Shown: positions 6,790 to 64,000, counted from the first letter of the stretch. The stretch: DNA of 64,000 bases from SAR324 cluster bacterium (GCA_015231885.1 JADGAT010000001.1:27436-91435), one strand, 5' to 3'. The notes: generated from the sequence alone by a model not told the origin. A program made the numbers and translations.

Positions 6790-8997
6790 ATGGCAAAAAT
6801 AGAAAAAATTCAAATAGCACAAGGAGTACATTGGATCACTATACCAGAGGCCAAACTCTATATATTGTGCGGATGCCCTGCTGATAGCGTTAAACTTCTG
6901 ATGAAAAGAGGATTGATTGTCTCCAAAGAAGAAAATGGGGTGGTATTTGAAACAGGCCCAAACGCAATTTTGCTGTCAGATGTCTTGGTTCAAAATGGAA
7001 ATTTTTCTAATCTTGCCGAATTTCCAGTATTACAAATGTTTTACAGGCAAGGCATGATGCTGCCGAATCATCCAAATAATACAGGAATCAAACCTTTGTT
7101 AATTGGTATGGAAGATCAGTTGAAATCACAGTTGCACTATATTTATCGTGGAAATTATGGACTGATCTCAGCAGATGAAATCATGCAAACCGGAATTTCC
7201 AGCAAGCAAGCTAAAGACATGATGCGTTTGAAGTTAAAATTTGCTTTTGGAAAAATTCATCCTACAGAAGACTTGCTGGATACATTGTTGGTCTCCGAGG
7301 ATACCGTAGAAATTCGCAATGGCGTGCATATTCGGCACATCGGTTGGAATCTTTATGAATTCATATACCAGGGAGAAAAAGTTACGGTTGATTTGAATTT
7401 ACCCCCGCATGTGTATTATGAGGCACCATACCGGTTGGAATTCCATAAAGTTCGGAGAGAATATTTTGCAGTTATTCATTCAGGAGAGGGCGATGGATGG
7501 GACACTCATCGACCCTGTATGGCGAGTGTTTTAACATTTCAAGGAAAAATCTATTTGATTGATGCCGGCCCCAATGTACTATACAGTCTGAAAGCCCTGG
7601 GAATCGGAGTTAACGAAATTGAAGGTATTTTCCACACACATGGTCACGATGATCACTTCGCCGGCTTACCCACACTGATGCGTACAGATCGTCGCCTCAA
7701 GTACTACAGCACTCCGCTGGTACGCCACTCGGTCGCCAAAAAACTCTCAGCACTGGTGTCCATCAAAGAAAGGGATTTTGCTGATTATTTTGACGTCTGT
7801 GATTTGGAGCTTTCTAAATGGAATGATATTGACGGTTTAGAAGTCTACCCTACTTTTTCTCCCCATCCCGTAGAAACCAATAATTTTATCTTTCGTACTC
7901 TGTGGAAAGGAGGGTATCGCTCTTATGGACATTATGCTGACATTTCTTCTTTCGACGTGTTAAAAGGAATGATTACCAAAAATGATTCGGAACCCGGAAT
8001 TTCTGAATCTTTTTTTACAGAAGTTAAAAAAAATTATCTGGCTACTGTGGATTTAAAGAAAATTGATATTGGGGGAGGCATGATTCACGGAGTAGCTGAA
8101 GACTTTCGTAGTGACTCATCGGCTAAAATAGTTTTATCCCACACTGCTTTTACCCTCAACGCTCAGCAAAAAGAAATCGGTTCGGAAGCATCTTTTGGCA
8201 TGCCCGATGTGTTGATCGAATCAAATCAGCAGTATGTCATGCAGTATGCCTTCAATTATCTGCATTCTTACTTTCCATCCGTACCCCGACATCAGCTTCA
8301 TATCTTACTCAATAACCACTTAGTATCATTCAATGCGGGAAGCATCTTACTCAAAAGAGGCGAAAGGATTAACGATATCTATCTCATATTGGGCGGTAAT
8401 GTTGAAATGATTCAAGCAGACGCCGGGATAGAAAGCTTACTGTCAGCAGGCTCTTTAGTCTCAGAAAGCTGTGAATTTACTGGATCACCTTCAACATGCA
8501 CCTATCGGGCGGCCAGTTTTGTGCAGGCACTGCAACTACCAAGCTCTTTATATTTCGAATTTGCTAAACAAAATAAAGTCTATACAGAACTGGCAAGACT
8601 TCAAAAAAACAGAGCTTTTTTGCAATCATCCTGGCTGTTTGGTGATGAAATATCAGATCCTGTGCAAAATCGAATTTTACAGACAATAAAATCAGAGAAA
8701 TACTCAAAAGGGCACGTATTCCCGAAAGAGTGCTACTCCAATTTTTATTTGATCAAAAAAGGTAAGTTAGAGAGTTATATTGATGATGATTTGTTTGAAA
8801 CTTTGACTAAAACAAATTTTTTTGGAGAAGAAAATATTTTATTCAAGATTCCATGTTTATTTACGGTCAAGGTTGCCAGTTCTGCAGAAGTATACCAGAT
8901 ACCTGATGAGGCGTTGCGCAATATTCCAATCGCCCGCTGGAAAATGCTCGAAACATTTCAAAAGAGAATGAGAAAATTAGGAAAACATTTTACTTGA
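6790..8997 (+). CDS. multidomain protein: unknown N-terminal domain + MBL-fold metallo-hydrolase + C-terminal cyclic-nucleotide-binding (CAP-family) domain(s)
   Basis: MBL HxHxDH motif within HTHGHDDHF. The C-terminal region carries cNMP-binding-like signatures (FFGEENILF...TVKVASSAEVYQIP, and a weaker one around CEFTGSPSTCTYRAAS). 735 aa. Confidence 0.6.
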   Translation: MAKIEKIQIAQGVHWITIPEAKLYILCGCPADSVKLLMKRGLIVSKEENGVVFETGPNAILLSDVLVQNGNFSNLAEFPVLQMFYRQGMMLPNHPNNTGIKPLLIGMEDQLKSQLHYIYRGNYGLISADEIMQTGISSKQAKDMMRLKLKFAFGKIHPTEDLLDTLLVSEDTVEIRNGVHIRHIGWNLYEFIYQGEKVTVDLNLPPHVYYEAPYRLEFHKVRREYFAVIHSGEGDGWDTHRPCMASVLTFQGKIYLIDAGPNVLYSLKALGIGVNEIEGIFHTHGHDDHFAGLPTLMRTDRRLKYYSTPLVRHSVAKKLSALVSIKERDFADYFDVCDLELSKWNDIDGLEVYPTFSPHPVETNNFIFRTLWKGGYRSYGHYADISSFDVLKGMITKNDSEPGISESFFTEVKKNYLATVDLKKIDIGGGMIHGVAEDFRSDSSAKIVLSHTAFTLNAQQKEIGSEASFGMPDVLIESNQQYVMQYAFNYLHSYFPSVPRHQLHILLNNHLVSFNAGSILLKRGERINDIYLILGGNVEMIQADAGIESLLSAGSLVSESCEFTGSPSTCTYRAASFVQALQLPSSLYFEFAKQNKVYTELARLQKNRAFLQSSWLFGDEISDPVQNRILQTIKSEKYSKGHVFPKECYSNFYLIKKGKLESYIDDDLFETLTKTNFFGEENILFKIPCLFTVKVASSAEVYQIPDEALRNIPIARWKMLETFQKRMRKLGKHFT

Positions 8998-19942: not shown

Positions 19943-22855
19943 ATGAATATGGGTGTGCTTCATATGACAGCAAAATTCATGCTACGTGCATTCTGTTTGA
20001 TGACCATCTTATGTAGCAGTGCTGGGGTCATGTCAGTTCAAGCAGCAGATGAATATATCATTCAGCAAATTTTAAAATTAGGAAACAAAAAAGCGTATGA
20101 TGCAGTTTTTAGTCCAGACAACCGATTCATAATTACCTTATCCGGAACTCACAAGCTGGAAGTTTGGAATAGCCGAACAGGTAATCCTGTGAAAGCATTT
20201 CCCACCGGAAAACATAAAGCCATGTCGTTGATTTCCCATCCACAGGATTCGGTTTTAATCACTGGGGGTAATGATCATACCATTCATGTATGGGATGTCA
20301 ACCGTGGGAGTACAACTAATGCCATGCGTGGGCATGTGGGAGCAATCACCACATTGGCCATTAATTATGACGGAACCCTGCTGGTTTCGGGAAGTGAGGA
20401 TGGTGCTATTTTGATATGGGATCTGAAACACTTTGCTTTACAAAGTACGATCCAAAAGGCGCATCTCGGCATCGTCCACAGTGTGGACATTCATCCCAAC
20501 GGAAAATTGCTGGCGAGCGGGGGAAAAGATCGCAAAATCAGGATTTGGAACCTGCAAACCGGGAAGATGATCGTTGAGTTCAAGGAGCATGCAGGAGAAG
20601 TAACAAAGGTGGCATTCCACTCGAATGGAAGAATATTAGCTTCGGCCTCTCAAGATAAAACCATCAAATTGTGGAATTGGCAAGAAAAATTTGCAGAACA
20701 TACCCTGAGCAACCATGGCAATGTGGTAACCGGATTGAGCTTTCACGCAAATGGGACGGTTCTGATTTCCAGCAGTGAGGATGAAAGGATCATTCTCTGG
20801 GATATTGAAAAAGGGAAAATGCTTTCCGAATTGAAATCGGTGGATGGCTCCGTCGAAAGTGTTCATTTTGACAGTAGCGGGAAACGAGTTATTGCAGCTA
20901 CAGCAAAAGGATTAGCAGAAGTTTGGGAGTTGGGGCCCTCTTCGTTTCTGGCCTCATTGCAGGGACACCAACGCTTCATTACAGCCCTGGATTTCACAAA
21001 AAATGGCAAGTATTTGCTCTCTGCAGCATTGGATAAAACGATCAAAGTCTGGAGTATGGACCAGCAGCAATTAGCCGTCACGTTCCCATCCGGAAACCAC
21101 CGTGTCCAGGACCTTCGTATGAGTCAGGACAGCCGAAACTTTGCAACCGCAGGTGCCGATTCGCTAGTTGGTATATGGGATACACAATCGGGACAGAGAC
21201 TGGCTTCGTTAGAAAAACATAAAGGAAAAGTCAATAGCATTGATTATCATCCAACACAACCATTTTTAGTGTCTGCTGGATCTGATCGGCAATGGTTTCT
21301 TTGGGATTTGGAGACGAGCCAGGCAACTCAATCCAGCATGACCCATCAAGATCAAATAACCGTAGTGCGGTTCGCTCCTGATGGATCACACTTTGCTACT
21401 GGCAGTGCGGATAAATCTATCATGGTATGGAGTTATCCCCAAGGGCAGCTCGTTCACACATTGACCGGTCATCGTAAAGCAATCAGTGATCTTGCTATTA
21501 GCCCCATTTCACCGATCCTGGCTTCTGCATCTGCTGATGAGACCATTACACTATGGGATATTTCTTCAGAAGGCGGGAAAAAAATACATGATTTGAAAGG
21601 GCATGGCTTTATTGTAACGGGAGTTGCTTTTTCTAAAGACGGCAAAGTTTTGATTTCTGTGTCACGTGATAAAACCGTACGCCTCTGGGATGTGGAAACC
21701 GGAAAGCCGATTAAAATTCTTAGCGGAGAACGCCATCCTATCAGCAAAATGGCCGTACGGCCGGATGGTAAACTGATTGCAGTGGGTACTCTAGGAAATG
21801 AAATCACTTTATTAGGATATCCGCTGGACATCATTGAAGTGAGCAAAAAAAAACAGGGATTGATGACAAAAGGAAACCATGCTTCAAACCAAAATCAGAA
21901 AACTGCGCAAAGGGTTGATATTTCTGATGCTGAAGCTTATATTGTGGATCAATCTGACCTGGAGGAAACTGTCGAAGAGTATGTCGAAGAGCAGATTTAT
22001 CAGGTAACGCAAAAAGAAGACTTTGCCAAGATCCAGGAAACCCGTCAACACAGCCTGAATATTGTGTTGAATAAAGGAGAAGTCTGTGAAAACGCGAACG
22101 ACTTGGAAGAAAAAGCCATTGAGGTATTGCAGATGGCTCCAGGAGACTTATCGGCATACCATGCATTTTTAAAAGTTGCTATCACACGCCAAGATATCAA
22201 TATGATATTTTTGCTGGCAAAAATCAGTTCATACGCATCCTTTGTTCCAAGTCGTTACAACTATGCACTTCCCATTGATGTAGAAAATAACTTCCGCTCC
22301 TGGATAGAAGATATTTTTGAGCAATCTCATATACGACAACAGGATAGTTTCCTGCTTTCACTCAAAAATTGCCTGGGAAAAACAATACAAATGAGGATCC
22401 CAGACATGCTGTATTATTTGGATATTCCAGAAGAATTTATACAAAAAATAATCACCATCCCACGATTTATCGACTTGCGCGATTTTAAAGGTTTAGGAAC
22501 AGAAGAATTTAAAAACCGTTTGTTTGGACAAATTTTGAAAAAACTGGGAAGTTCCACACCATATCAGGATAATCGAAGTCCCTTGGGAAATAATTTTATT
22601 TCCCCACCCGTGCCTTCAGGGCAGCTTGTTGTGAACCTGACACAAACACAACTCTGGGGCAATCCAACGCAGGTTCGCTTCCAGCTCAGAGAAAGAAGCA
22701 ATCCGTGGCAAACGTATTATACGGCAATGGATAAACAGAAAATTCTGTTTCTCCCAACAGGTCAATATTATCTTAAAATTGATAAAAGCATTCGACGTGC
22801 TTTTGTGCTAAAAGCAAATCAGAGCACCCAAATAAAAGGACCTGATTTACAATAG
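19943..22855 (+). CDS. secreted WD40-repeat protein (about 14 blades) with a C-terminal domain of unknown function
   Basis: Signal peptide ending VQA/ADEY. Fourteen WD-type blades, each with a W[DNES] dipeptide at its C-terminal end (LEVWNS, IHVWDV, IRIWNL, IKLWNW, ... VRLWDV). An acidic linker is followed by a ~300 aa C-terminal region with no recognisable motif. An AAGGAGTG RBS precedes the ATG. Confidence 0.8.
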   Translation: MNMGVLHMTAKFMLRAFCLMTILCSSAGVMSVQAADEYIIQQILKLGNKKAYDAVFSPDNRFIITLSGTHKLEVWNSRTGNPVKAFPTGKHKAMSLISHPQDSVLITGGNDHTIHVWDVNRGSTTNAMRGHVGAITTLAINYDGTLLVSGSEDGAILIWDLKHFALQSTIQKAHLGIVHSVDIHPNGKLLASGGKDRKIRIWNLQTGKMIVEFKEHAGEVTKVAFHSNGRILASASQDKTIKLWNWQEKFAEHTLSNHGNVVTGLSFHANGTVLISSSEDERIILWDIEKGKMLSELKSVDGSVESVHFDSSGKRVIAATAKGLAEVWELGPSSFLASLQGHQRFITALDFTKNGKYLLSAALDKTIKVWSMDQQQLAVTFPSGNHRVQDLRMSQDSRNFATAGADSLVGIWDTQSGQRLASLEKHKGKVNSIDYHPTQPFLVSAGSDRQWFLWDLETSQATQSSMTHQDQITVVRFAPDGSHFATGSADKSIMVWSYPQGQLVHTLTGHRKAISDLAISPISPILASASADETITLWDISSEGGKKIHDLKGHGFIVTGVAFSKDGKVLISVSRDKTVRLWDVETGKPIKILSGERHPISKMAVRPDGKLIAVGTLGNEITLLGYPLDIIEVSKKKQGLMTKGNHASNQNQKTAQRVDISDAEAYIVDQSDLEETVEEYVEEQIYQVTQKEDFAKIQETRQHSLNIVLNKGEVCENANDLEEKAIEVLQMAPGDLSAYHAFLKVAITRQDINMIFLLAKISSYASFVPSRYNYALPIDVENNFRSWIEDIFEQSHIRQQDSFLLSLKNCLGKTIQMRIPDMLYYLDIPEEFIQKIITIPRFIDLRDFKGLGTEEFKNRLFGQILKKLGSSTPYQDNRSPLGNNFISPPVPSGQLVVNLTQTQLWGNPTQVRFQLRERSNPWQTYYTAMDKQKILFLPTGQYYLKIDKSIRRAFVLKANQSTQIKGPDLQ

Positions 22856-32015: not shown

Positions 32016-33584
32016 TTGAACCGTGACATGAATAACCCTTCGAAACAAAAATATTACCAGCAAATCGCTAATAAAAAACGCGATTTTCCGGCATTAATCA
32101 TCATCAGTGAAAACAGTTGTGTCGTGTATACCCATTGCGGAACAGGACCCAAATATGAGGAAGTCTTCAAAGAATTTGAATCGTTTCATGAGCAAAACCT
32201 TGGTGGATCTCTCCTGGCATCGTTGTCTGAAAATGATCGTACTGCTTTGCAGAACTGGATAGATATTCTCTATGACGAAACCTATGTCGAATTGATGATG
32301 CCGGAAGATATTGTCAAACTGTGCCCCTCATTTTCTCTCACCTGGACAGATGGACAAAACTATGAGGTGCGTTTTGAAGCAATCAAAACCGAAGTCATTT
32401 ATGAGTATGTTCTGGTATGGCTGGAGCCCCATGGACACACTCAGCAGCAGCAACTGGCATCCGATATTATTGAATTGATGGGCGAGTTGAGAGCAGCCCC
32501 ACGAGAGGTGATCAATAATCTAAGAGAATACCTGCCAGAAGTGAATACGAACATCAATTTCGCTAGCTATGCCGATATTGAAGACTCAGAAGAGTTATTG
32601 CATCAACTTTCCCGGCATTTGCACGCAGCAAAGGGGACCACTTTTTTTCTTGGATTTTCCACATTGGGGAATGCATGTCATGGTGCTGAATCGAAGCTTG
32701 GAGAGTTGAGAGGCACATGGCAGCTGTCCGATGGACTGCAGCCGATTCGTGACGTACTCAGCCAATTACAATTGTTATTGAACCTGGCAGAAGGAATCAG
32801 TACAAAAGTATACAACTCTAGCGCAGAATCTGAGGAAGAAGAAATGTCTGTCTCTCGCTCTGATTATTATGAGATATTGGGCAATGCTGCTTTGATTTAT
32901 GAGGAATGGAAACATTTATTTGAAAAAGAAGAAAAACTCGTTCTTTTGATCGATCAACTATATCATGGGTTGATACATCTAGATGCTGTGCCTATTACAA
33001 CCCTTTTTGAAAGATTAAATAGCTCAACAGCTCAACTTTCAAAAGAGCTCGACAAATCCGTGGAATTTTCCGTTGGTTCGAACTCTCCCACGGTACACCT
33101 CCCTCACCGGGTATTAGATGGTTTATGGAATGCCCTCTATCAGGTGTTAAAAAATGCGATCGATCATGGAATTGAAGATCCTCCCACCAGAGCCAAGTGC
33201 AACAAATCTCCTGTTGGACAAATTATATTCACTGTGAACGTAATAGACGAACTGCTCGTCTTACAATTACATGACGATGGTAGGGGAATCAATCCGCAAG
33301 ATATCATTCGAACTGCTGTAGAACGAGGGGTCATTTCCAAGGAAAAAGCAAAGCAACTGGAAGGGTTCGATTCTACAGATGAAATTTACCAATTGCTATT
33401 CTCTCCAGGATTTTCCACACAGAAAGTAGTTACGACCATCTCAGGCAGGGGGGTTGGCACCGATGTCATTCGCGAAGAAATTGAAGAATACTCGGGACAA
33501 ATTTCTATTGTTTCTGAAGTCGGACAGTGGACGGAATTTATTTTGAGAGTCCCCATTGCTCCTAACCACATTGTCGTAGAATGA
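32016..33584 (+). CDS. CheA-like HPt-containing histidine kinase lacking a CheW-like domain
   Basis: HPt-like motif LHAAKGTTFFLGFSTLGNACHGAESKLGEL (compare CheA P1 HSIKGgagtFGf). The C-terminal HATPase_c has G-box motifs (DDGRGINPQDI, GRGVGTDVI). The protein ends right after the ATPase domain. Confidence 0.55.
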   Translation: MNRDMNNPSKQKYYQQIANKKRDFPALIIISENSCVVYTHCGTGPKYEEVFKEFESFHEQNLGGSLLASLSENDRTALQNWIDILYDETYVELMMPEDIVKLCPSFSLTWTDGQNYEVRFEAIKTEVIYEYVLVWLEPHGHTQQQQLASDIIELMGELRAAPREVINNLREYLPEVNTNINFASYADIEDSEELLHQLSRHLHAAKGTTFFLGFSTLGNACHGAESKLGELRGTWQLSDGLQPIRDVLSQLQLLLNLAEGISTKVYNSSAESEEEEMSVSRSDYYEILGNAALIYEEWKHLFEKEEKLVLLIDQLYHGLIHLDAVPITTLFERLNSSTAQLSKELDKSVEFSVGSNSPTVHLPHRVLDGLWNALYQVLKNAIDHGIEDPPTRAKCNKSPVGQIIFTVNVIDELLVLQLHDDGRGINPQDIIRTAVERGVISKEKAKQLEGFDSTDEIYQLLFSPGFSTQKVVTTISGRGVGTDVIREEIEEYSGQISIVSEVGQWTEFILRVPIAPNHIVVE

Positions 33585-53526: not shown

Positions 53527-54300
53527 TCAGGATGTCACTGGTACTAATTCAAATCCAAATTGTTTAGCCTGACGTTTTAGACGTTGTAACGCGTTTGAAT
53601 CCTTTTGAGAGAAATACTCTTCTCCGAGTTCGTGATAGGATTTTCCCTCTTTGAGGATCAAGTAAATAACTTTGAGTATTTTATGAGCAATAGCGACAAT
53701 GGCTTTTTTAGAACCTCGACGGGATTTGAGTCGATAATATTTGGCTTTCCAAAAGCTGTTTTTCTTTTTGACAGCGGCCCAGGCCATTTCCACAAGCATT
53801 TCTCGAAAAAGATGTTTTTTAGCCGGGTTGCTCCCATTGCGTCTTTTGCCGGCACTTTCGTTATTGCCGGGACAAACTCCGGCCCAGTTGCTCAAGGCCT
53901 CCGGGGATCGAAAGGCCATCAGATCAGGGCCCAATTCGCCTAGAATAGATTGAGAGGCGACTTTATCAATGCCAGGAATTTCATCGAGCCGTTTCAAGGC
54001 TTCTTGATGGTCGCCCATGAGGCTTTCTACTTGCTTTTCAAGAGCGGTAATCTCATTCTCTAGTGTATTCAGGATATGGAGCAAACTCCGTAATTGAAAA
54101 CGATGGTGGTCATTAAAAAAGCCTTGGATAGAACGATATAATTCCTCAGATTTATTAACAAGGGTTCCACGACATTGTTGTTGAACGCCCTCTAAAGTGG
54201 GTTGAGAACATTCAAGTAAATAGCGCATCAAATTTCGACCGGTCACTCCAAAGAGTTCGGAGACCACAGAATCAATTTTGATATTAGCTGTTTCAAACAA
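53527..54300 (-). mobile_element. IS110-family transposase remnant (C-terminal Transposase_20 region only; N-terminal DEDD catalytic domain missing)
   Basis: 257 aa matching the C-terminal two-thirds of IS110-family transposases (LDEIPGIDKVASQSILGELG, HLFREMLVEMAWAAVKKK, AIVAIAHKIL). An in-frame stop lies immediately upstream, and no N-terminal domain is found in any frame of the adjacent 210 bp. Confidence 0.7.
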
Positions 54301-56833: not shown

Positions 56834-57080
56834 GAATTTTTCCTTTCTCCAAGCAAATGTAAATCAAATAGGACTCTTTTAGTCCTGATTTTACCCGAAG
56901 TATTACGGATGTCAACAGTTCTGTTTTGAAACAAATTCCTAATTTATGAGCTTACATGGCAGGACACCCGATACCATTCTTGTATTGCAACTAATCTTTT
57001 CTTACATTACAATTTTGTCTGACAAATCATTTCTAAGAATGAAAAAAGACCATGCATGCCTTGTTTAATGTAGGACAATC

Positions 57081-59336
57081 ATGAATGACAACGATAAACC
57101 AAAAGGGGGGTTAATAGAAGAACTGAACGAATTACGACAGAAGGTTGCCCTTTTAGAAAAGACTCTTTCTCAAAAGGAAATGCATGCATCTGAAGAAGTA
57201 ACGTCAAGGCTCTATAAGACAAACGAATCCGTTAATCTGCGAAAGCTGGCCGAACAACATTTACCAGCACCTCCACCCATTGATCTGCTGGAATTAACCC
57301 GGGAAGATATCGAGCACTTGTTTCATGAGCTGCAGGTCCATCAGATTGAGTTAGAGCTCCAAAACGATGAGCTTCTCAAAAACCAGCAAGAATTGGAACA
57401 ATCCCGAGATCTCCTTTACGATCTCTATGACCTTGCCCCAGTAGGATATCTGACGGTTAATAAAAGCGGCATCATCCGGAAAGCCAACCTCACCCTGGCA
57501 GCTATGCTCAATGCCGATAAACAAAGTTTGGTTGGCAAGCCGTTATCGCATTTTGTACATCCAGAAGACCAGAATCTGTATTTTTTGAAGGGCAGGGATC
57601 TGTTTAGAAGCCCCAGTTTGAAACAAACTGAGATCAGGATGCTAAACAGTGACGGTTCCTTCTTCCATGCGATGCTGACAGGAAGGAAAACAGAAAATAC
57701 GAAGGAGGCGCGACTGGTTGTTACCGACATCACCCCCCTCAAAAGAACCGAAGAGGCACTGAAGTATGCAGAAAAAGAAAACAAACGTGCTGCGGATATT
57801 GTGGCCAATATAGGCGTGGGGCTTCACATATACCAGTTGGAAGATATTGACGATGATTCTTCTTTGAGGATGATCACTGTCAATGAAGCAGCAGCCGTGA
57901 TGACAGGCATTCCTGCTGGAAAGACGATCGGTAGAACCCTGGATGAGAATTTTCCTGAACTGCGCAGGATGGAAGTGCCCCAAAAGTATGCACAGGTGGC
58001 TCGTTCCGGCATATCAATAGAACTTGGAGAAATCCATTACAGTAATGAACAGATCGGCTTTGCGACATTTTTTGTAAAAGTCTTTCCGCTTCCTGAAAAC
58101 TGCGTGGGAGTTTCGTTTGAGAATATTACCAAACGCAAACTGCTGGAGTCCCAGCTCCATCATTCGCAGAGATTGGACTCCCTGGGAACCCTGGCAGGAG
58201 GGATTGCTCATGAGTTCAATAATATTTTGTCGATTATTCGAGGCTACGGCGACATTCTGCTCCAAAAACTTCCTGAAGACAGTACAGAGAAATCCTATAT
58301 GGAGAACGTCCATACAGCCAGCAGAAGAGCCGTTGATCTGACAAAACAAATCTTAACCTTCAGTCGGATGGAACATCAAAAAAACGATGTACATTACATA
58401 CAGCCTTTGATTAAAGAAGTCCTCAAAATGATGAGAGCCACCTTACCTGTCACCATTGAGATCCAGGAAGATATCGATTCCAATTGCGCCCCCATCCTGG
58501 CAGACCCATCACAAATACATCAAGTACTTGTCAACCTCTTTACCAATGCGTTCCATGCCATGGAAGAGACTGGAGGTCTTCTGACAGTCACTTTAAAGCA
58601 AGAAACCCATAATGGGAATCAGCCGCTGCTATCCGAATTAAAAGGTGATTCGTTTCTGAAGCTGACAGTCAGCGATACAGGATATGGCATTCCAATCGAA
58701 GATCAGGAAAAAATATTTGATCCCTTTTTTACCACAAAAAAAGTAGGTGAAGGAACCGGACTTGGTTTATCCATGGTTCACAGCATTATCAAACAACATG
58801 GAGGCATCATTACGGTAGAAAGTGAGATGAAGACGGAGCAGTGCTCTGGGGGAACCTCTTTCCATATTTATCTTCCGACCGCTTCCAGAAGTTCCGAAAG
58901 CCAGCAGGAAGAAAAAAAGACACTTCCCAGAGGAAGAGGACACATCTTAGTTGTTGATGACGACACGTTGATCACCGAAGTGTACCAAGATATATTGACG
59001 GAAACTGGATATGACGTCACTGCTTTTGACAACGAGTTGGATGCATTGAAAAAATTTCAGCAAAATCCAGATCAATTTGATTTGATTTTTACAGACTTCA
59101 CCATGCCTCACTTAACCGGAGATCAGTTGAGCCAACAAATATTAAAGATCCGACCCGACATTCCCATTATTCTGACAACAGGTTACAGCAATATGATCTC
59201 TGAAAAAAAAGCAAAAGCTCTTGGAATTCAAGAATTTTTGATGAAGCCTGTTGAAAAAATTCAGCTGCTTGAAACCATTCAGAAGCTGCTTAAAAAGAAT
59301 CCAGAAAATAACCATTCAAATACGATTTTTTCTTGA
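57081..59336 (+). CDS. PAS-domain hybrid sensor histidine kinase (coiled coil, PAS, HisKA, HATPase_c, receiver)
   Basis: H-box IAHEFNNIL, N/G boxes (NLFTNAFHAM, DTGYGIP, GTGLGLS) and a C-terminal receiver (ILVVDDD...DLIFTDFTMP). Confidence 0.8.
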   Translation: MNDNDKPKGGLIEELNELRQKVALLEKTLSQKEMHASEEVTSRLYKTNESVNLRKLAEQHLPAPPPIDLLELTREDIEHLFHELQVHQIELELQNDELLKNQQELEQSRDLLYDLYDLAPVGYLTVNKSGIIRKANLTLAAMLNADKQSLVGKPLSHFVHPEDQNLYFLKGRDLFRSPSLKQTEIRMLNSDGSFFHAMLTGRKTENTKEARLVVTDITPLKRTEEALKYAEKENKRAADIVANIGVGLHIYQLEDIDDDSSLRMITVNEAAAVMTGIPAGKTIGRTLDENFPELRRMEVPQKYAQVARSGISIELGEIHYSNEQIGFATFFVKVFPLPENCVGVSFENITKRKLLESQLHHSQRLDSLGTLAGGIAHEFNNILSIIRGYGDILLQKLPEDSTEKSYMENVHTASRRAVDLTKQILTFSRMEHQKNDVHYIQPLIKEVLKMMRATLPVTIEIQEDIDSNCAPILADPSQIHQVLVNLFTNAFHAMEETGGLLTVTLKQETHNGNQPLLSELKGDSFLKLTVSDTGYGIPIEDQEKIFDPFFTTKKVGEGTGLGLSMVHSIIKQHGGIITVESEMKTEQCSGGTSFHIYLPTASRSSESQQEEKKTLPRGRGHILVVDDDTLITEVYQDILTETGYDVTAFDNELDALKKFQQNPDQFDLIFTDFTMPHLTGDQLSQQILKIRPDIPIILTTGYSNMISEKKAKALGIQEFLMKPVEKIQLLETIQKLLKKNPENNHSNTIFS

Positions 59337-59562
59337 TTTCTAAGCATTTGAAATCAATGATTTTAAAATCTTTCCCGACAAATTGGGTACCTCGTCCCCA
59401 TATTTTTAATCAAACTTTTCTGTTACCGTAGGATTGTATTTTTTTATTCCATGGAAGTCGTTTTCTATGGGACAAGTCATGACATACATCAAGGCGACAG
59501 AGCTGGAATGAACATAAGGCTCATGTTAGTGAAATGAAGCAACTGAAACAAAATGGATTACC

Positions 59563-59886
59563 ATGCCAATCAATTATGAAAAAGAAAAAAATGCTCTTAT
59601 TTTCAAACTCGCAGGAAACATTGCTTGGGAAACCGCACACAGATACAGCGAAGAAATGATGAATTTGGCGGAACAAGAAGATTATGAGTCGATACTGGTC
59701 GACTTTGAAAACGTCGATTTTGTTGACTCAACAGGAGTTGGATTATTAGTCGAGTTATATAAAATCGCACAGACCAGGAAGAAAAAGCTCTCCGTCTGCA
59801 GGATGAAAATGGCCTATAAGCTGGCAATGATTGGATTAGGCAGTATTATTGTCAATTATGACAGCAAAGAAGAGGCTTTGTGTTAA
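59563..59886 (+). CDS. STAS-domain protein (anti-sigma factor antagonist-like)
   Basis: 107 aa with the SpoIIAA-like DSTGVG motif. Overlaps the GTG start of the downstream kinase by 7 nt. Confidence 0.7.
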   Translation: MPINYEKEKNALIFKLAGNIAWETAHRYSEEMMNLAEQEDYESILVDFENVDFVDSTGVGLLVELYKIAQTRKKKLSVCRMKMAYKLAMIGLGSIIVNYDSKEEALC

Positions 59887-61913
59887 CAGATGATACGGAT
59901 AAAACCATCCGAATACTGGTTATCGATGATGATGCTCTCATTCTCCATGCGACCTCACAGACTTTGAGGTCGGCGGGTTATGAAGTGATAGAGGCATTGA
60001 CAGGCAGGGAAGGGTTGCGCCTGGCCACAGAAATAATACCTGAATTGATTCTTCTTGATGTTGAGCTACCGGATTTGCATGGTTTTGACGTGTGCCGCAG
60101 CATTAAGGCCGATCCGGCACTGGCACACACTTATGTAATGATGATCTCGGGCATCAAGATAAAATCGGAGCACTTGGTAGAAGGTCTTGAAATTGGAGCA
60201 GATGATTATGTGGTACGCCCTGTCCCAAATCGTGAACTTCTGAAACGTGTACAAATTGCGTTGCGCATCAAGCAAACAGAAGAGGAGTTGAAACAACACA
60301 GGGACCAGCTGGAACAATTGGTCGAAAAGCGTACGGCGGAATTACAGGCAAGCAATGCACAGCTGCAGCAGGAAATCACGGAGCGCAAACAGATCGAAGA
60401 TAAGGTCAATAAGCTGGCATTGGCCGTTGAATATAGCCCCAGCATGGTTATGATAACAGATAGCAATGGCATTATCGAATATGTCAATCCTAGATTTGTC
60501 GAAATCACCGGCATCCCGGCTCAAACCATAACTGGGAAAAATGCCAATACCGATTTAGGACTGCCCACCTCAGCAACGGATGATCAAGCAGCACTTTGGA
60601 ATAAAGTCCGTTCAGGGCAATTATGGAAAGGAGAGTTTCATAATAAACGGCATGATGGAACCTTTTATTATGAAGAAGCGTCTATTGCCCCTCTCACAGA
60701 TGAATCCGGCCGCATTACCCACTATATCAAAATTGCCAACGATATCACGGAGCGCAGACAACTTGAGTCTCAGGTACGACAATCCCAAAAACTGGATGCC
60801 TTAGGAACACTGGCAGGAGGAATTGCCCATGAATACAACAATATTTTAGCAATAATACAGGGATATGGAGATCTGTTGCTTTCTAGACTCCCGGAAAACG
60901 GCAAAGAAAAACACTATGTTGAGAAAATACGTGAAGCAGGAAAAAGAGCGGTTGATTTGACAAAGCAAATTTTGACTTTCAGTCAGATGGATAGTCAAAA
61001 ACTCCGAGTGCAATACCTAACCCCCTTGATCAGCGAGTCACTTAAAATGATGAGGGCAACGCTACCTGTCACCATTGATATTCAACACAACCTTGATCCT
61101 GGCTGTTCTCCAATTTTAGCGGATTCCTCCCAAATACATCAGGTACTAGTAAATTTATTTACCAATGCGTCTCATGCGATGGAAACAACAGGAGGTGTCC
61201 TGAAAATCAGCTTGCAGGAAAAGAAACATCATAACACTCAGGAGGTGTTGCCCAAACTAAAAACGGATACTTTTTTAAAGCTGACAGTCCAGGATACAGG
61301 CTGTGGTATACCATCAGAAGATCAGGAAAAAATATTTGATCCCTTTTTTACAACCAGGCAAGTTGGTCAAGGCAGAGGATTTGGACTGTCAGTTGTTCAC
61401 AGTATCATTGAAAAGCACGGAGGGGCGATTACAGTAGAAAGTGTAATCAACCAGGGAACAGCTTTTCACATTTATCTTCCTATTTCTCATGAAACAGTTC
61501 ACGAAGCCCAAGAAAAAAAGAAACAAGAACGATCTCTTTACCAAGGGAAAGGTCACATTTTAGTGGTGGATGACGAAGAGGCACTAGTGGTGATTCATGA
61601 AGCACTATTGACAGACATTGGATACGAAGTCACGAGCTTTACTGACGCATTGGAAGCATTAGCAAAATTCCAAGAAAGTCCATCTCGATTTGATTTGGTA
61701 TTTACCGACTTCACCATGCCTCATTTAACCGGAGACCAATTGAGCCAGCAGCTGTTGAAGATCCATCCCGATATTCCAATTATTATGGCAACGGGTTACA
61801 GCAGTATGATTTCTAAAGAAAAAGCAAAATCCATTGGTATTCGTGAATTCATGATGAAGCCTATTGATAATGATCAGCTGGTTGCCACCATTCAGAAACT
61901 GCTAAATGCATAA
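59880..61913 (+). CDS. hybrid sensor histidine kinase (receiver, PAS, HisKA, HATPase_c, receiver); paralog of the 57081 kinase
   Basis: GTG start. N-terminal receiver (ILVIDDD), H-box IAHEYNNIL and a C-terminal receiver. The kinase core is highly similar to 57081-59336. Confidence 0.8.
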   Translation: MLTDDTDKTIRILVIDDDALILHATSQTLRSAGYEVIEALTGREGLRLATEIIPELILLDVELPDLHGFDVCRSIKADPALAHTYVMMISGIKIKSEHLVEGLEIGADDYVVRPVPNRELLKRVQIALRIKQTEEELKQHRDQLEQLVEKRTAELQASNAQLQQEITERKQIEDKVNKLALAVEYSPSMVMITDSNGIIEYVNPRFVEITGIPAQTITGKNANTDLGLPTSATDDQAALWNKVRSGQLWKGEFHNKRHDGTFYYEEASIAPLTDESGRITHYIKIANDITERRQLESQVRQSQKLDALGTLAGGIAHEYNNILAIIQGYGDLLLSRLPENGKEKHYVEKIREAGKRAVDLTKQILTFSQMDSQKLRVQYLTPLISESLKMMRATLPVTIDIQHNLDPGCSPILADSSQIHQVLVNLFTNASHAMETTGGVLKISLQEKKHHNTQEVLPKLKTDTFLKLTVQDTGCGIPSEDQEKIFDPFFTTRQVGQGRGFGLSVVHSIIEKHGGAITVESVINQGTAFHIYLPISHETVHEAQEKKKQERSLYQGKGHILVVDDEEALVVIHEALLTDIGYEVTSFTDALEALAKFQESPSRFDLVFTDFTMPHLTGDQLSQQLLKIHPDIPIIMATGYSSMISKEKAKSIGIREFMMKPIDNDQLVATIQKLLNA

Positions 61914-61966: not shown

Positions 61967-63097
61967 TCAATCAGACTCAGCCTGTTTCAAAACCAATTTC
62001 ACTTCCGTTCCATGCTCGTCGATTCCTTCCATCTGTTCTTTTGAGAAAACTTCAATGCTTCCTCCATAAGCATGCATAAAGCTCCTGACAAGAGACATTC
62101 CATACCCTGTTCCCTGTTCACCATCTGTTCCTTTTCTAATGGTCATTTGATTAAAATCAAAAATACCTCCAAGCAGCTGTTCGGACATTCCAATACCCTG
62201 ATCTTTTATTGAAACAGCAACCTCCTCTCCATTTTGCGTTGCATCAATAGTGATGATTGACCCTGGATAAGAAAACTTTATGGCATTTGTCAACAGGTTG
62301 GCTAAAACAACATTCACAAAAGAAACCTGTTCTGTCAAGACATTCAAAGTCTCGGATATGTTGATTTCTAATTCAATATTTTTTTTTGCAAACACTCGTT
62401 TAACAATCTCTGCAGCTTCACCAACGCCCTCTTGAAGATTTAATTTTGTCAGTTGAAGAGAAAATTCTTGATCAACCAAGGACCTCAATTGCCGGCCTAA
62501 TTTAACCAGCTCTACACTGTTTTTGAGGCCCTTCAGAACAACATACTTCATTTGATGGGCAACTAGCGGGTTTGTATCCAGTTGCTCTAACATAAAAATG
62601 GAACCACTCAATGAATTAATGAGGTCATGGCTGAGCACATGAAGCAGTTGTTTTCGTTCATTATTCTGTCTTTCTGTTAACTTTCTCCTAAAAGTAAGCT
62701 CAAGGTGAGTTTTCACCCGTGCTAGAAGCTCTAAGGGATTGAATGGTTTTGTCACATAATCCACTGCCCCCAGCTCAAATCCTTCTGTAATGCTTTTTGT
62801 ATCTATTTTTGCTGTAAGAAAAATAATGGGAATCCTGTGAGTCTTTTCATTCTTTTTCAACTGACGACAGGTTTCAAAACCATCGAGCTTCGGCATCATG
62901 ATATCTAAAAGAATCAAATCAGGCTTTGTTATTTCAACCTTTTCCAGTGCTTCAATGCCATCTTGCGCTACATGTATTTCATAATCCTGAGCACTTAAAA
63001 TTGTTGCCAGTAGCTGAATGTTGACAGGCATATCATCCACAATTAAAATACAGGCTTTTTTGTCTGGTTCATGCATATTTTCCTTTTTACCACGCAT
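61967..63097 (-). CDS. response-regulator/histidine-kinase hybrid (receiver, HisKA, HATPase_c)
   Basis: N-terminal receiver (ILIVDDMP...DLILLDIMMP), H-box LSHDL, and a G-box (GTGYGMS). Confidence 0.75.
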   Translation of the reverse strand: MRGKKENMHEPDKKACILIVDDMPVNIQLLATILSAQDYEIHVAQDGIEALEKVEITKPDLILLDIMMPKLDGFETCRQLKKNEKTHRIPIIFLTAKIDTKSITEGFELGAVDYVTKPFNPLELLARVKTHLELTFRRKLTERQNNERKQLLHVLSHDLINSLSGSIFMLEQLDTNPLVAHQMKYVVLKGLKNSVELVKLGRQLRSLVDQEFSLQLTKLNLQEGVGEAAEIVKRVFAKKNIELEINISETLNVLTEQVSFVNVVLANLLTNAIKFSYPGSIITIDATQNGEEVAVSIKDQGIGMSEQLLGGIFDFNQMTIRKGTDGEQGTGYGMSLVRSFMHAYGGSIEVFSKEQMEGIDEHGTEVKLVLKQAESD

Positions 63098-63117
63098 ACG
63101 TTCTTATAAATCATTGG

Positions 63118-64000
63118 TCATGATAAGCCATCACTAAGTTTTTGAACAATTTCAGGATAAATGAGCATTATCTTGTTTGTGGCTTCTATGTCAAATATTT
63201 CAGCAGCCTCCCGCAACAGTTTTCCCCAGTTGAGCAAAGGACTGTATTGATACTGCTCGCCCAACTGCTTCAACTCACTTGCAAATATCACCGTATCCTG
63301 CAATGACAAACCGGTACGCTGATCCCACTTCTTTTTCACTTCACCTTCAAGCAGTTGAAGGAGCTGCGGTAACTTGTTCCGATTTTCAGGAGTAATGGGT
63401 TCTACACTCAATAAATCTTCTGTGATTGAAATGTTTTCAGTCAATGACGGAGTCAAAAGAGTATATTCCAAATGCATGGATTGGGGATCAAGCGATTGCT
63501 CTAAATAATCATCGGATTCTGCCATGGAATGGGATTGAACACCCGGTAAAATCACTTCAAACCGACTGCCTTGCTCTTGCTGACTGGCAACCAAAATGGT
63601 CCCTCCCATCAACTCTACAATCTTTTTGGTAATACTCAGCCCCAATCCAGTTCCCCCATATTGTTTTTGCTGCTGATCTTTTTGTTGTTCAAAAGCCTTA
63701 AAAATTTTTTCTTGCTGGTCTTCTGGAATTCCAATGCCACTGTCAACTACAACAATATGGAGATCTGACGATTGTTTTGTCTGTTCTTCAGTCTTGTGCA
63801 AAAAAGCAGACAACCGGATGTATCCGTTGTCCGTAAATTTAACAGCATTGCCGATGAGGTTGATCAGAACCTGGCGCAACCGGGTTTCATCAAGAATGAG
63901 CAGATTCGGCATGTCTTTGTCAAATTCCACGCTGAATTCCAGCCCTTTATCAACGATCTTCTGGTTAAAAAGAGTCTGCATTTCCTGTAAGAGTGCCTGA
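63118..64000 (-). CDS. sensor histidine kinase, C-terminal part (HATPase_c plus extra C-terminal domain); gene continues beyond the window end
   Basis: HATPase motifs (NLIGNAVKFT, DSGIGIP, GTGLGLS). The frame stays open to base 64000, so the HisKA and sensor regions lie outside the window. Confidence 0.7.
   Translation of the reverse strand, partial: QALLQEMQTLFNQKIVDKGLEFSVEFDKDMPNLLILDETRLRQVLINLIGNAVKFTDNGYIRLSAFLHKTEEQTKQSSDLHIVVVDSGIGIPEDQQEKIFKAFEQQKDQQQKQYGGTGLGLSITKKIVELMGGTILVASQQEQGSRFEVILPGVQSHSMAESDDYLEQSLDPQSMHLEYTLLTPSLTENISITEDLLSVEPITPENRNKLPQLLQLLEGEVKKKWDQRTGLSLQDTVIFASELKQLGEQYQYSPLLNWGKLLREAAEIFDIEATNKIMLIYPEIVQKLSDGLS

What the first reader, a model, noticed from the sequence alone, without database searches (positions are those of the whole stretch)
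57081..61913. Tandem paralogous PAS hybrid histidine kinases separated by, and translationally coupled to, a STAS-domain gene
The kinase cores of 57081-59336 and 59880-61913 are closely similar at protein level. Examples are LGTLAGGIAHE[FY]NNIL, KMMRATLPVTI[ED]IQ, DQEKIFDPFFTT and the whole C-terminal receiver. At DNA level they are about three-quarters identical, for example at 58701 versus 61322. This points to a tandem duplication that later diverged in the sensor regions: the first kinase has a coiled coil plus PAS, the second a receiver plus PAS. The STAS gene between them overlaps the GTG start of the second kinase by 7 nt. STAS proteins are usually substrates of partner-switching kinases, so pairing with hybrid HKs suggests a mixed phosphorelay and partner-switching circuit.
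Basis: seen in the sequence. Interest (0 to 1): 0.55.

Follow-up and report, generated by a model that had tools for sequence, protein, structure and literature searches.

The report
STAS switch gene between paralogous kinases
In a SAR324 bacterial genome, a small SpoIIAA/RsbV-type STAS switch protein is encoded between two related hybrid histidine kinases and overlaps the start of the second; the genes are ordinary members of known families, but the repeated pairing of STAS genes with kinases in this one genome, with no usual STAS kinase or phosphatase nearby, is a modest untested lead.

Summary
K1 (57081-59336), STAS107 (59563-59886) and K2 (59880-61913) are real ORFs, and the 7-nt STAS/K2 overlap uses the only possible K2 start. 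The K1 and K2 cores are 65% identical in protein and 70% in DNA; their sensor regions are only 27% identical.

The tandem-duplication reading is only partly supported. The same genome (SAR324 MAG, GCA_002753255.1) has two unlinked paralogs, P0003 and P0004, that are equally close (61-67%). K1+K2 are sisters with only 59.5% bootstrap support. dS is about 1.5, which is saturated, so the event cannot be dated.

STAS107 is a canonical SpoIIAA/RsbV-type protein. It passes TIGR00377, its model fits SpoIIAA at TM 0.90, and it keeps the phospho-Ser56. No RsbW-type kinase, PP2C phosphatase or sigma factor lies in the window or the 8 kb beyond it.

The new point is recurrence. All three loci that carry this kinase family in this genome also carry STAS genes, and a second STAS-kinase-kinase operon converges on K2. 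Nine loci holding related kinases from other assemblies have none.

Circuits that combine two-component and partner-switching signalling are already known (HsbR/HsbA, SypE/SypA, RsfSR/RsfB), and a STAS protein binding a histidine kinase is known (CheS-CheA). This is a lineage-specific variant of moderate to low interest.

The parts
56985..57013 (+). Sigma-70-like promoter match (TTGCAA-17-TACAAT) about 68 nt upstream of K1. It lies in the 247-nt divergent region shared with the NifU/rhodanese gene.
   Evidence: This is a consensus match only; the number of matches in the region is not above the shuffle expectation.
57081..59336 (+). K1: 751-aa hybrid histidine kinase. Order of parts: coiled-coil 'S-box' leader, PAS_9 (aa 120-218), PAS_4 (aa 259-350), HisKA (368-432), HATPase_c (475-600), receiver (622-733).
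   Evidence: best NCBIfam matches are VirA-like and CckA-like, all below their cut-offs.
59337..59562 (+). 226-nt spacer between K1 and the STAS gene. No predicted intrinsic terminator on the + strand, no Rfam match, and no unusual RNA fold.
   Evidence: z-score 0.52.
59563..59886 (+). STAS107: 107-aa single-domain STAS protein of the SpoIIAA/RsbV type. It carries the motif VDS56TGVG, with Ser56 as the putative phospho-acceptor.
   Evidence: PF01740 E = 9e-14. TIGR00377 scores 60.1 bits against a cut-off of 53.45. PDB sequence alignment to SpoIIAA places Ser56 on the SpoIIAA phosphosite column. AF2 model has pLDDT 94. Foldseek gives TM 0.89-0.90 to SpoIIAA in its complex with SpoIIAB. S56 is conserved in at least 90% of 66 homologs. 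dN/dS is 0.32 against paralog P0122.
59871..59886 (+). Translational-coupling junction. AGAGG Shine-Dalgarno-like site at 59871-59875; K2 GTG start at 59880; STAS stop TAA at 59884-59886. The overlap is 7 nt.
   Evidence: Read directly from the sequence; ORF table.
59880..61913 (+). K2: 677-aa kinase with a receiver at both ends. Order of parts: REC (about aa 12-125), coiled coil, PAS (180-291), HisKA (308-372), HATPase_c (415-535), REC (560-671). The N-terminal receiver has Arg where CheY has Lys109.
61967..63097 (-). REC-HK376: 376-aa kinase with an N-terminal receiver, a divergent H-box (LSHDLINSL) and HATPase_c. It is the last gene of the operon that converges on K2. It has a weak, sub-threshold match to the RsbW-type HATPase_c_2 model.
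   Evidence: HATPase_c 70 bits; HATPase_c_2 25.4 bits against a cut-off of 27.4. Also.
63118..64000 (-). C-terminal part of a 915/890-aa sensor kinase (sensor, HAMP, PAS, HisKA, HATPase_c). The gene continues past the window end. A second STAS gene (127 aa, motif VDSMGLG) lies directly upstream of it at L001 16315-16698 (-).
   Evidence: L001 is identical to the window over 14,438 nt.

Best explanation
This is a lineage-specific signalling island in a SAR324 genome. It consists of two convergent operons: K1 > STAS107 > K2 on the + strand, and STAS127 > HK915 > REC-HK376 on the - strand.

K1 and K2 are two members of a SAR324-specific expansion of CckA/VirA-like PAS hybrid histidine kinases. 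The genome has at least four members. They share a conserved HisKA-HATPase-receiver cassette joined to different sensor modules.

STAS107 is a genuine SpoIIAA/RsbV-type phospho-switch protein. The stop/start overlap means it is probably made together with K2.

My proposed mechanism (inferred, not shown) has three steps:
1. K1 and/or another kinase feeds the N-terminal receiver of K2, as in the common 'sensor kinase followed by receiver-fronted kinase' gene pairs.
2. STAS107 binds K2, or K1, as a stoichiometric modulator or adaptor of the phosphorelay. This would resemble the STAS protein CheS binding the kinase CheA.
3. The binding state of STAS107 is set by phosphorylation of Ser56, carried out by a GHKL Ser kinase and a PP2C phosphatase encoded elsewhere in the genome.

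The result would add a second input to the two-component pathway.
For: Shown:
- Gene structures, domains and the 7-nt overlap with an SD-like site.
- Both kinases keep the H-box His, the N/G1/F/G2 boxes and the receiver Asp residues.
- dN of about 0.24 against dS of about 1.5 shows purifying selection on both cores.
- STAS107 passes the anti-sigma-antagonist superfamily cut-off and models onto SpoIIAA at TM 0.90.
- Ser56 is kept; it is conserved in at least 90% of 66 homologs.

Recurrence in the same genome:
- A truncated STAS (VDSSG) lies 302 nt upstream of paralog P0004.
- Two STAS genes close the operon that contains paralog P0003.
- STAS127 heads the convergent kinase operon.
- So 3 of 3 loci of this kinase family in this genome carry STAS genes, against 0 of 9 loci from other assemblies.

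Supporting context:
- A 36% relative of STAS107 in another SAR324 MAG follows a cNMP-binding PP2C (SpoIIE) phosphatase. That STAS relative therefore sits in a classical PP2C context.
- Receiver-fronted kinases directly follow another kinase in L003, L004, L005, L012 and on the minus strand of L001.
- Precedent for a STAS-only protein binding a histidine kinase: S. meliloti CheS-CheA, as summarised in PMC12654446.
Against: - No physical or expression data exist.
- The arrangement was found in only one genome. STAS107 has no ortholog in 5.8 billion clustered proteins. Its closest relative, P0122 (54% in BLASTP), is a paralog in the same genome with no kinase directly adjacent.
- K2-like kinases in other taxa have no neighbouring STAS gene.
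- No STAS-kinase fusion proteins appear among the best STAS107 homologs.
- No Ser kinase or PP2C phosphatase was found in about 100 kb of this genome that I examined.
- The spacing between STAS and kinase genes differs among the loci (overlap, about 11-86 nt, 302 nt, or two genes apart). That argues against a strict stoichiometric module.
Confidence: 0.4

Rival explanations
1. The genes share an operon but have no direct functional link. STAS107 works in a conventional partner-switching module, with an RsbW-type kinase or anti-sigma factor and a PP2C phosphatase encoded elsewhere. It sits between two kinases because this genome is rich in both gene types and signalling genes tend to cluster. 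At most the genes are co-regulated.
For: STAS107 is in every tested respect a canonical SpoIIAA/RsbV-type protein. A relative in another SAR324 MAG sits in a classical PP2C-STAS pair. The nearest paralog, P0122, stands alone. Related kinases elsewhere never carry a STAS gene.
Against: All three loci of this kinase family in this genome carry STAS genes, and a fourth STAS-kinase operon lies next door. Six STAS genes were seen in about 100 kb, and none lies beside an RsbW or PP2C gene. The stop/start overlap with K2 points to co-translation.
Confidence: 0.33
2. The kinases themselves are the STAS kinases. The Bergerat-fold ATPase domain of K2 (or of REC-HK376, P0003 or P0004), under control of the N-terminal receiver, phosphorylates Ser56 of the operon-encoded STAS protein. 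It would thus take the role that RsbW or SpoIIAB plays in classical systems.
For: RsbW and SpoIIAB belong to the same GHKL superfamily as kinase ATPase domains. No dedicated RsbW-type gene lies near any of the six STAS genes examined. REC-HK376 gives a sub-threshold HATPase_c_2 match of 25.4 bits against a cut-off of 27.4. The common feature of the four STAS-associated operons is a receiver-fronted kinase.
Against: All these kinases keep an intact HisKA H-box His and score far better on HATPase_c than on the RsbW-type model. I know of no HisKA-class kinase shown to phosphorylate a STAS serine. The rest of the genome was not searched, so ordinary RsbW-type kinases may exist elsewhere.
Confidence: 0.12
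3. K1-STAS-K2 is simply the relic of a tandem duplication. One ancestral kinase duplicated in place, the sensors were then swapped, and the STAS gene was inserted or retained by chance.
For: K1 and K2 are each other's best match in the core (63.7% in BLASTP). They have the highest identity at four-fold degenerate sites among pairs that involve K1 or K2 (0.49 against 0.34-0.42). The receiver region has a lower dS of 0.87.
Against: The sister grouping has only 59.5% bootstrap support, and the family tree is star-like. The unlinked pair P0003-P0004 is closer (66.7% aa, dS 1.1). K2 shares its N-terminal receiver architecture with P0003 and P0004, not with K1. The low dS in the receiver could equally reflect gene conversion between neighbouring genes.
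Confidence: 0.35

Closest known systems
SpoIIAA / RsbV anti-sigma-factor antagonists (STAS, PF01740; TIGR00377)
   Same: Single STAS domain of about 110 aa. The predicted fold superposes on SpoIIAA (TM 0.90) and RsbV. The DSxG motif with the phosphorylatable Ser is kept. STAS107 scores above the superfamily cut-off.
   Different: The neighbourhood has no adjacent SpoIIAB/RsbW-type kinase or anti-sigma factor, no PP2C phosphatase and no sigma factor. Instead the gene overlaps a HisKA-class hybrid kinase.
Partner-switching modules coupled to two-component systems: HptB-HsbR-HsbA (P. aeruginosa; PMC6482189, PMC8256260), CrsR-CrsA, SypE-SypA (V. fischeri), RsfS-RsfR-RsfB (M. smegmatis; PMC10950880)
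   Same: A phosphorylatable STAS protein is placed genetically with histidine-kinase and receiver signalling.
   Different: In every known case the link is a receiver fused to a PP2C phosphatase and/or an RsbW-type Ser kinase. No such protein is present in this locus. Here the receiver is fused to a complete HisKA-HATPase kinase.
CheS-CheA (Sinorhizobium meliloti / Agrobacterium; summarised in PMC12654446)
   Same: A STAS-only protein is encoded beside a histidine kinase. CheS binds the kinase directly and alters its phosphotransfer to receiver proteins. This is the mechanism I favour by analogy.
   Different: CheA is a class II (Hpt-type) chemotaxis kinase in a che operon. Here the kinases are class I HisKA hybrids with no che genes nearby. 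Sequence relatedness of STAS107 to CheS was not tested.
Vibrio-type stressosome loci (RsbR-RsbS-RsbT-RsbX followed by two-component genes; PMC9237108)
   Same: STAS proteins are genetically linked to two-component proteins rather than to a sigma factor.
   Different: A stressosome needs an RsbR-type sensor-STAS protein, RsbS, the RsbT kinase and the RsbX phosphatase. None of these is present here except small STAS proteins.
CckA / VirA-like 'PAS S-box' hybrid histidine kinases, and gene pairs of a sensor kinase followed by a receiver-fronted kinase
   Same: H-box AGGIAHE[FY]NNIL, HATPase_c and a C-terminal receiver. The best NCBIfam matches are PRK13557, VirA-like and CckA. K2-type kinases commonly sit directly after another kinase (L003, L004, L005, L012).
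   Different: All NCBIfam scores are far below the equivalog cut-offs, so K1 and K2 are not orthologs of CckA or VirA. In the other loci the upstream kinase is unrelated (25-30% identity), whereas K1 and K2 share 65% of the core. Those pairs have no STAS gene between them.

Membership tests
Anti-sigma-factor antagonist (SpoIIAA/RsbV-type STAS) | STAS domain profile match above the curated cut-off | tested here: met
   PF01740 scores 51.5 bits against a cut-off of 22.6. TIGR00377 scores 60.1 bits against 53.45.
Anti-sigma-factor antagonist (SpoIIAA/RsbV-type STAS) | SpoIIAA-like alpha/beta fold | tested here: met
   AF2 model with a 66-sequence alignment has pLDDT 94. Foldseek gives TM 0.89-0.90 and rmsd 1.7-1.8 Å to SpoIIAA (1th8/1thn), and it also matches RsbV (6m36).
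Anti-sigma-factor antagonist (SpoIIAA/RsbV-type STAS) | Conserved phosphorylatable Ser in the DSxG motif at the start of helix 2 | tested here: met
   VDS56TGVG aligns with fmDSsGlG of SpoIIAA in the PDB alignments. S56 is at least 90% conserved in 66 homologs. All five other STAS proteins of this genome examined here keep DSxG.
Anti-sigma-factor antagonist (SpoIIAA/RsbV-type STAS) | Cognate GHKL Ser kinase / anti-sigma factor (RsbW/SpoIIAB, PF13581) encoded with it | tested here: not met
   No PF13581 hit above cut-off among 52 of the 55 selected ORFs scanned in the window (three short ones not scanned), nor in L001. The only trace is a sub-threshold hit in REC-HK376. The rest of the genome was not searched.
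Anti-sigma-factor antagonist (SpoIIAA/RsbV-type STAS) | PP2C (SpoIIE/RsbU-type) phosphatase and a target sigma factor | tested here: not met
   No SpoIIE or PP2C domain and no sigma-factor domain in the window or in L001. A 36% relative in another SAR324 MAG does follow a cNMP-binding SpoIIE gene.
HisKA-class hybrid histidine kinase | HisKA with H-box His, HATPase_c with N/G1/F/G2 boxes, and a receiver with the acidic pocket and phospho-Asp | tested here: met
   Pfam hits are above cut-off for all three domains in K1 and K2. The motifs IAHE[FY]NNIL, NLFTNA, DTG[YC]GIP, FDPFFTT and GxGxGL, and VVDD...TDFTMP...TGY...KP, are visible in the alignment.
CckA / VirA orthologs | Score above the NCBIfam equivalog cut-off | tested here: not met
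   The best hits score 266-323 bits against cut-offs of 631-1000.
Partner-switching system coupled to a two-component system (HsbR/SypE/RsfR type) | A receiver domain fused to a PP2C phosphatase and/or an RsbW-type kinase that acts on the STAS protein | tested here: not met
   No such protein in the window, L001, L002, L003 or L011. The receivers here are fused to HisKA-HATPase kinases.
Stressosome (RsbR-RsbS-RsbT) | RsbR-type sensor-STAS protein together with RsbS and the RsbT kinase | tested here: not met
   Only single-domain STAS proteins are present, and there is no RsbT-type kinase. RsbS structures rank below SpoIIAA and RsbV in the fold search.
CheS-type STAS accessory protein of a histidine kinase | STAS-only protein that physically binds its neighbouring kinase and changes phosphotransfer | not testable with these tools
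   Only adjacency and stop/start overlap are shown. No multimer prediction or binding assay was available, and there are no che genes in the locus.
Tandem duplicate pair (K1/K2) | K1 and K2 are each other's closest relatives, to the exclusion of other paralogs | tested here: inconclusive
   They are reciprocal best hits by a small margin (63.7% against 60.5-63.0%). NJ sister grouping has 59.5% bootstrap support. The unlinked pair P0003/P0004 is closer.

The most novel reading that the evidence does not exclude
In this SAR324 lineage, receiver-fronted HisKA kinases (K2, P0003, P0004, REC-HK376) may have become the direct partners of SpoIIAA-type STAS proteins. They would bind the STAS protein and perhaps phosphorylate its serine. 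The kinase would then take the place of the RsbW/SpoIIAB anti-sigma factor. That would be a partner switch whose 'partner' is a two-component kinase, with no dedicated Ser kinase or sigma factor in the module.
Probability: 0.15. Interest if true: 0.65.

Novelty: new variant of a known kind. Interest (0 to 1): 0.33.

Why it matters
If STAS proteins directly modulate HisKA-class kinases, or are modified by them, two of the main bacterial signalling systems would be joined without the usual REC-PP2C or RsbW adaptor. Those systems are two-component phosphorelays and partner switching. It would also give a role to some of the many orphan 'anti-sigma antagonist' genes found in environmental genomes. 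As it stands, the evidence is gene order in one uncultured genome. The practical value is a specific, cheap hypothesis to test: STAS107 with K2 in vitro. It does not resolve any open question.

Tried and rejected
- Orthologs of STAS107: the word-indexed search returned only the protein itself. The exhaustive HMMER search gave 9 hits below 1e-10. The best, P0122, turned out to be a paralog in the same genome.
- Wider synteny: an 11-sequence STAS alignment was too divergent for locus scanning. A 3-sequence alignment found one locus in genome contigs. Both metagenome scans found nothing.
- Fusion ('Rosetta stone') proteins: the multidomain STAS107 homologs are multi-STAS, TPR, hemerythrin, WecG or HATPase_c_2 fusions. 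None is fused to a histidine kinase.
- Neighbourhoods of nine related kinases from other assemblies contain no STAS gene. The cut ORF upstream of P0032 is not a STAS protein.
- RsbW, PP2C or sigma factor in the window: none.
- The 128-aa protein in the P0003 operon is not detectably STAS-like (hhalign probability 0.6%; no Pfam or NCBIfam hit).
- The K1-STAS spacer has no terminator, no Rfam family and no unusual fold.
- Single-sequence AF2 of STAS107 gave an all-helical model at pLDDT 49, which I discarded. The alignment-based model replaced it.
- Dating the duplication: dS is saturated at about 1.5, so no date can be given.

Full report
**Source.** Database names identify the window as a SAR324 cluster bacterium MAG. 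The same locus occurs on GCA_002753255.1 contig PDZZ01000026.1. I fetched it as L001, and it is identical to the window over 14,438 nt.

**1. Observation**

The three ORFs are as described:
- K1, 57081-59336, 751 aa
- a STAS gene, 59563-59886, 107 aa
- K2, 59880-61913, 677 aa, GTG start

Pfam gives these domains:
- K1: PAS_9, PAS_4, HisKA, HATPase_c, receiver
- K2: receiver, PAS, HisKA, HATPase_c, receiver
- the small ORF: STAS (E = 9e-14)

The junction reads ...AAAGAAGAGGCTTT GTG TTA A.... GTG at 59880 is the only in-frame ATG/GTG/TTG before the N-terminal receiver. The STAS stop is at 59884-59886, and AGAGG sits 4 nt upstream of the GTG. The 7-nt overlap and the plausibility of translational coupling are therefore confirmed.

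Similarity between K1 and K2:
- BLASTP: 52% over 553 aa.
- HisKA-HATPase-receiver core: 64.7% aa and 69.7% nt over 380 codons. Third positions are 52% identical against 26% expected.
- Sensor regions: 27% aa.
- Related kinases from other taxa are about 50% identical in the core. The similarity is therefore beyond generic domain conservation.

**2. Is it a tandem duplication?**

The best database matches to K2 include two further kinases from the same assembly. P0003 is REC-HisKA-HATPase-REC. P0004 is REC-PAS-HisKA-HATPase-REC.
- All six pairwise core identities among K1, K2, P0003 and P0004 fall between 61% and 67%. The unlinked pair P0003-P0004 is the closest at 66.7%.
- In a neighbour-joining tree these four, together with two kinases from assembly GCA_028282505.1, form a clade with 100% support. 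Its internal structure is star-like, and K1+K2 are sisters at only 59.5%.
- Nei-Gojobori estimates for K1-K2 are dN 0.24 and dS 1.5. Within that, dS is 2.2 in the kinase part and 0.87 in the receiver. For P0003-P0004, dS is 1.1.

The cores are under purifying selection, and the duplication is old enough that it cannot be dated. K2 shares its N-terminal receiver and coiled-coil architecture with P0003 and P0004, not with K1. A tandem duplication followed by sensor swapping remains possible. It is not distinguishable from an old dispersed family in which two members happen to be neighbours. The lower dS in the receiver may reflect gene conversion between neighbours.

**3. The STAS protein**

STAS107 looks like a canonical SpoIIAA/RsbV-type protein on every test I could run:
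- It passes the NCBIfam anti-sigma-antagonist superfamily cut-off (60.1 against 53.45 bits).
- By sequence it matches SpoIIAA, RsbV and RsbS structures. Its VDS56TGVG aligns with the DSSG phosphosite motif of SpoIIAA.
- S56 and G58 are at least 90% conserved among 66 homologs.
- An alignment-based AF2 model (pLDDT 94) superposes on SpoIIAA from the SpoIIAA-SpoIIAB complex at TM 0.90.
- Against its closest relative, dN/dS is 0.32, so it behaves as a real coding gene.

That closest relative, P0122 (54% in BLASTP; 52% over the codon alignment), is another paralog in the same genome with no kinase directly adjacent. Outside this genome the best relative found with context is 36% identical. It lies in another SAR324 MAG directly after a cNMP-binding PP2C (SpoIIE) phosphatase, which is a classical partner-switching pair.

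**4. Surroundings**

I scanned 52 of the 55 selected window ORFs against Pfam; three short ones were left out. None is an RsbW-type kinase (PF13581), a PP2C phosphatase or a sigma factor. The rest of the window encodes housekeeping and respiratory genes.

Beyond the window end, L001 shows that the two minus-strand kinase genes belong to a convergent operon: STAS127 > HK915 > REC-HK376. HK915 has sensor, HAMP, PAS, HisKA and HATPase domains. The island therefore holds four kinases and two STAS genes.

The other two loci of this kinase family in the same genome also contain STAS genes:
- A truncated STAS (VDSSG) lies 302 nt upstream of P0004.
- The operon ETR1_N-PAS-kinase > P0003 > 128 aa > 514 aa ends with two STAS genes of 117 and 110 aa.

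In contrast, nine loci holding related kinases from other assemblies contain no STAS gene. That is 3 of 3 against 0 of 9, about p = 0.005 by Fisher's exact test (my own arithmetic). The association is real but specific to this genome. It is not a property of the kinase family.

Six STAS genes were seen in about 100 kb of this genome. Five of them share an operon-like cluster with histidine kinases, and none lies next to an RsbW or PP2C gene. This sample is biased, because the loci were reached through kinases and STAS genes, so a whole-genome census is needed.

A second regularity also emerged. Receiver-fronted kinases like K2 commonly lie immediately after another kinase, often overlapping it. 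This is seen in L003, L004, L005 and L012, and for HK915 > REC-HK376. In the four pairs I compared (L003, L004, L005, L012) the upstream kinase is unrelated, at 25-30% identity. This suggests that K2's N-terminal receiver is fed by an upstream kinase, and K1 is the obvious candidate. K2 and P0003 carry Arg in place of the conserved receiver Lys (CheY K109). Ten other homologs keep Lys.

**5. Mechanism**

Shown:
- two apparently competent hybrid kinases;
- a canonical phosphorylatable STAS protein, probably co-translated with K2;
- recurrence of STAS-kinase operons in this genome;
- absence of the usual STAS kinase and phosphatase nearby.

Inferred best explanation (confidence about 0.4): STAS107 is a stoichiometric modulator or adaptor of the K1/K2 phosphorelay, and its state is set through Ser56 by enzymes encoded elsewhere. 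The precedent is CheS, a STAS-only protein that binds the kinase CheA and redirects phosphotransfer (PMC12654446).

Rivals:
- Mere co-location, with STAS107 acting in an unlinked conventional partner switch (0.33).
- Direct serine phosphorylation of STAS by the receiver-fronted kinases (0.12).

Whether K1 and K2 arose by tandem duplication is a separate question about evolutionary history, which I rate at about 0.35.

**6. Comparison with known systems**

Circuits that mix two-component and partner-switching signalling are well documented:
- HptB-HsbR-HsbA (PMC8256260; PMC6482189)
- SypE-SypA
- RsfS-RsfR-RsfB (PMC10950880)
- stressosomes followed by two-component genes in Vibrio (PMC9237108)

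In the first three of these circuits the coupling protein is a receiver fused to a PP2C and/or RsbW-type domain; the Vibrio stressosome uses the RsbT kinase instead. Such a receiver fusion, the defining feature of the coupled circuits, is absent here. I therefore do not file the locus as a member of any of these systems. It is a lineage-specific variant of the same general theme.

**7. Verdict**

The kinases and the STAS protein are ordinary members of large families. The recurrent coupling of STAS genes to kinases, without the usual partner enzymes, is a modest and testable lead that rests on gene order in one uncultured genome. Interest 0.33; novelty: new variant of a known kind.

Noticed in passing
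L001 12405-16698 (-), window 61967-64000 (-): A second STAS-led kinase operon, STAS127 > sensor-HAMP-PAS kinase (915/890 aa) > REC-fronted kinase (376 aa), converges on K2. The island therefore holds four kinases and two STAS genes.
   Followed up: partly
L003 4272-10308; L002 2-2460 (same genome, other contigs): The two unlinked paralogs of K1/K2 also sit with STAS genes. A cut STAS lies 302 nt upstream of P0004. Two overlapping STAS genes (117 and 110 aa) end the operon that contains P0003. That operon also holds a 128-aa and a 514-aa protein with no family match.
   Followed up: partly
L004 2690-7025, L005 2527-7055, L012 5798-9644, L003 4272-7635: Receiver-fronted hybrid kinases of the K2 type recurrently lie directly after an unrelated sensor kinase (25-30% identity), often overlapping it. 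This suggests a conserved two-tier kinase cascade.
   Followed up: partly
window 59880-60260 (K2 N-terminal receiver); L003 6001-6400: K2 and P0003 have Arg in place of the otherwise conserved receiver Lys (CheY K109): DYVVRPV and EYLVRPV. Ten homologs from other genomes keep Lys. The phospho-Asp and the acidic pocket are retained.
   Followed up: no
window 58950-59336 versus 61563-61913: The C-terminal receiver regions of K1 and K2 have much lower synonymous divergence (dS 0.87; up to 83% nt identity) than the kinase part (dS 2.2). This may be a gene-conversion tract between the neighbouring paralogs.
   Followed up: partly
window 53527-54300 (-): A 257-aa ORF with only the Transposase_20 (IS110-family C-terminal) domain. 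It lies between a CBS/DUF294 gene and a radical-SAM gene and looks like an IS remnant at the left edge of the signalling island.
   Followed up: no
window 32016-33584 (+); L011 4589-6682: Kinases with Hpt and HATPase_c domains but no Pfam CheW-domain hit (522 aa in the window). The same genome also has a 697-aa version with cNMP-binding, Hpt and HATPase domains. These are unusual CheA-like architectures.
   Followed up: no
window 19943-22855 (+): A 970-aa protein made largely of WD40 repeats (9 WD40 stretches, about two beta-propellers). This is large for a bacterial WD40 protein.
   Followed up: no
window 6790-8997 (+): A 735-aa protein combining a metallo-beta-lactamase domain with two cyclic-nucleotide-binding domains. 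Together with the cNMP-PP2C (L010, a different SAR324 MAG) and the cNMP-Hpt-kinase (L011), this hints at heavy use of cyclic-nucleotide inputs in SAR324.
   Followed up: no
window 41255-42475 (+); 42864-43787 (-): A 406-aa ORF with no family match above threshold (only a weak TonB_2 trace), next to a DUF6765 protein of unknown function.
   Followed up: no
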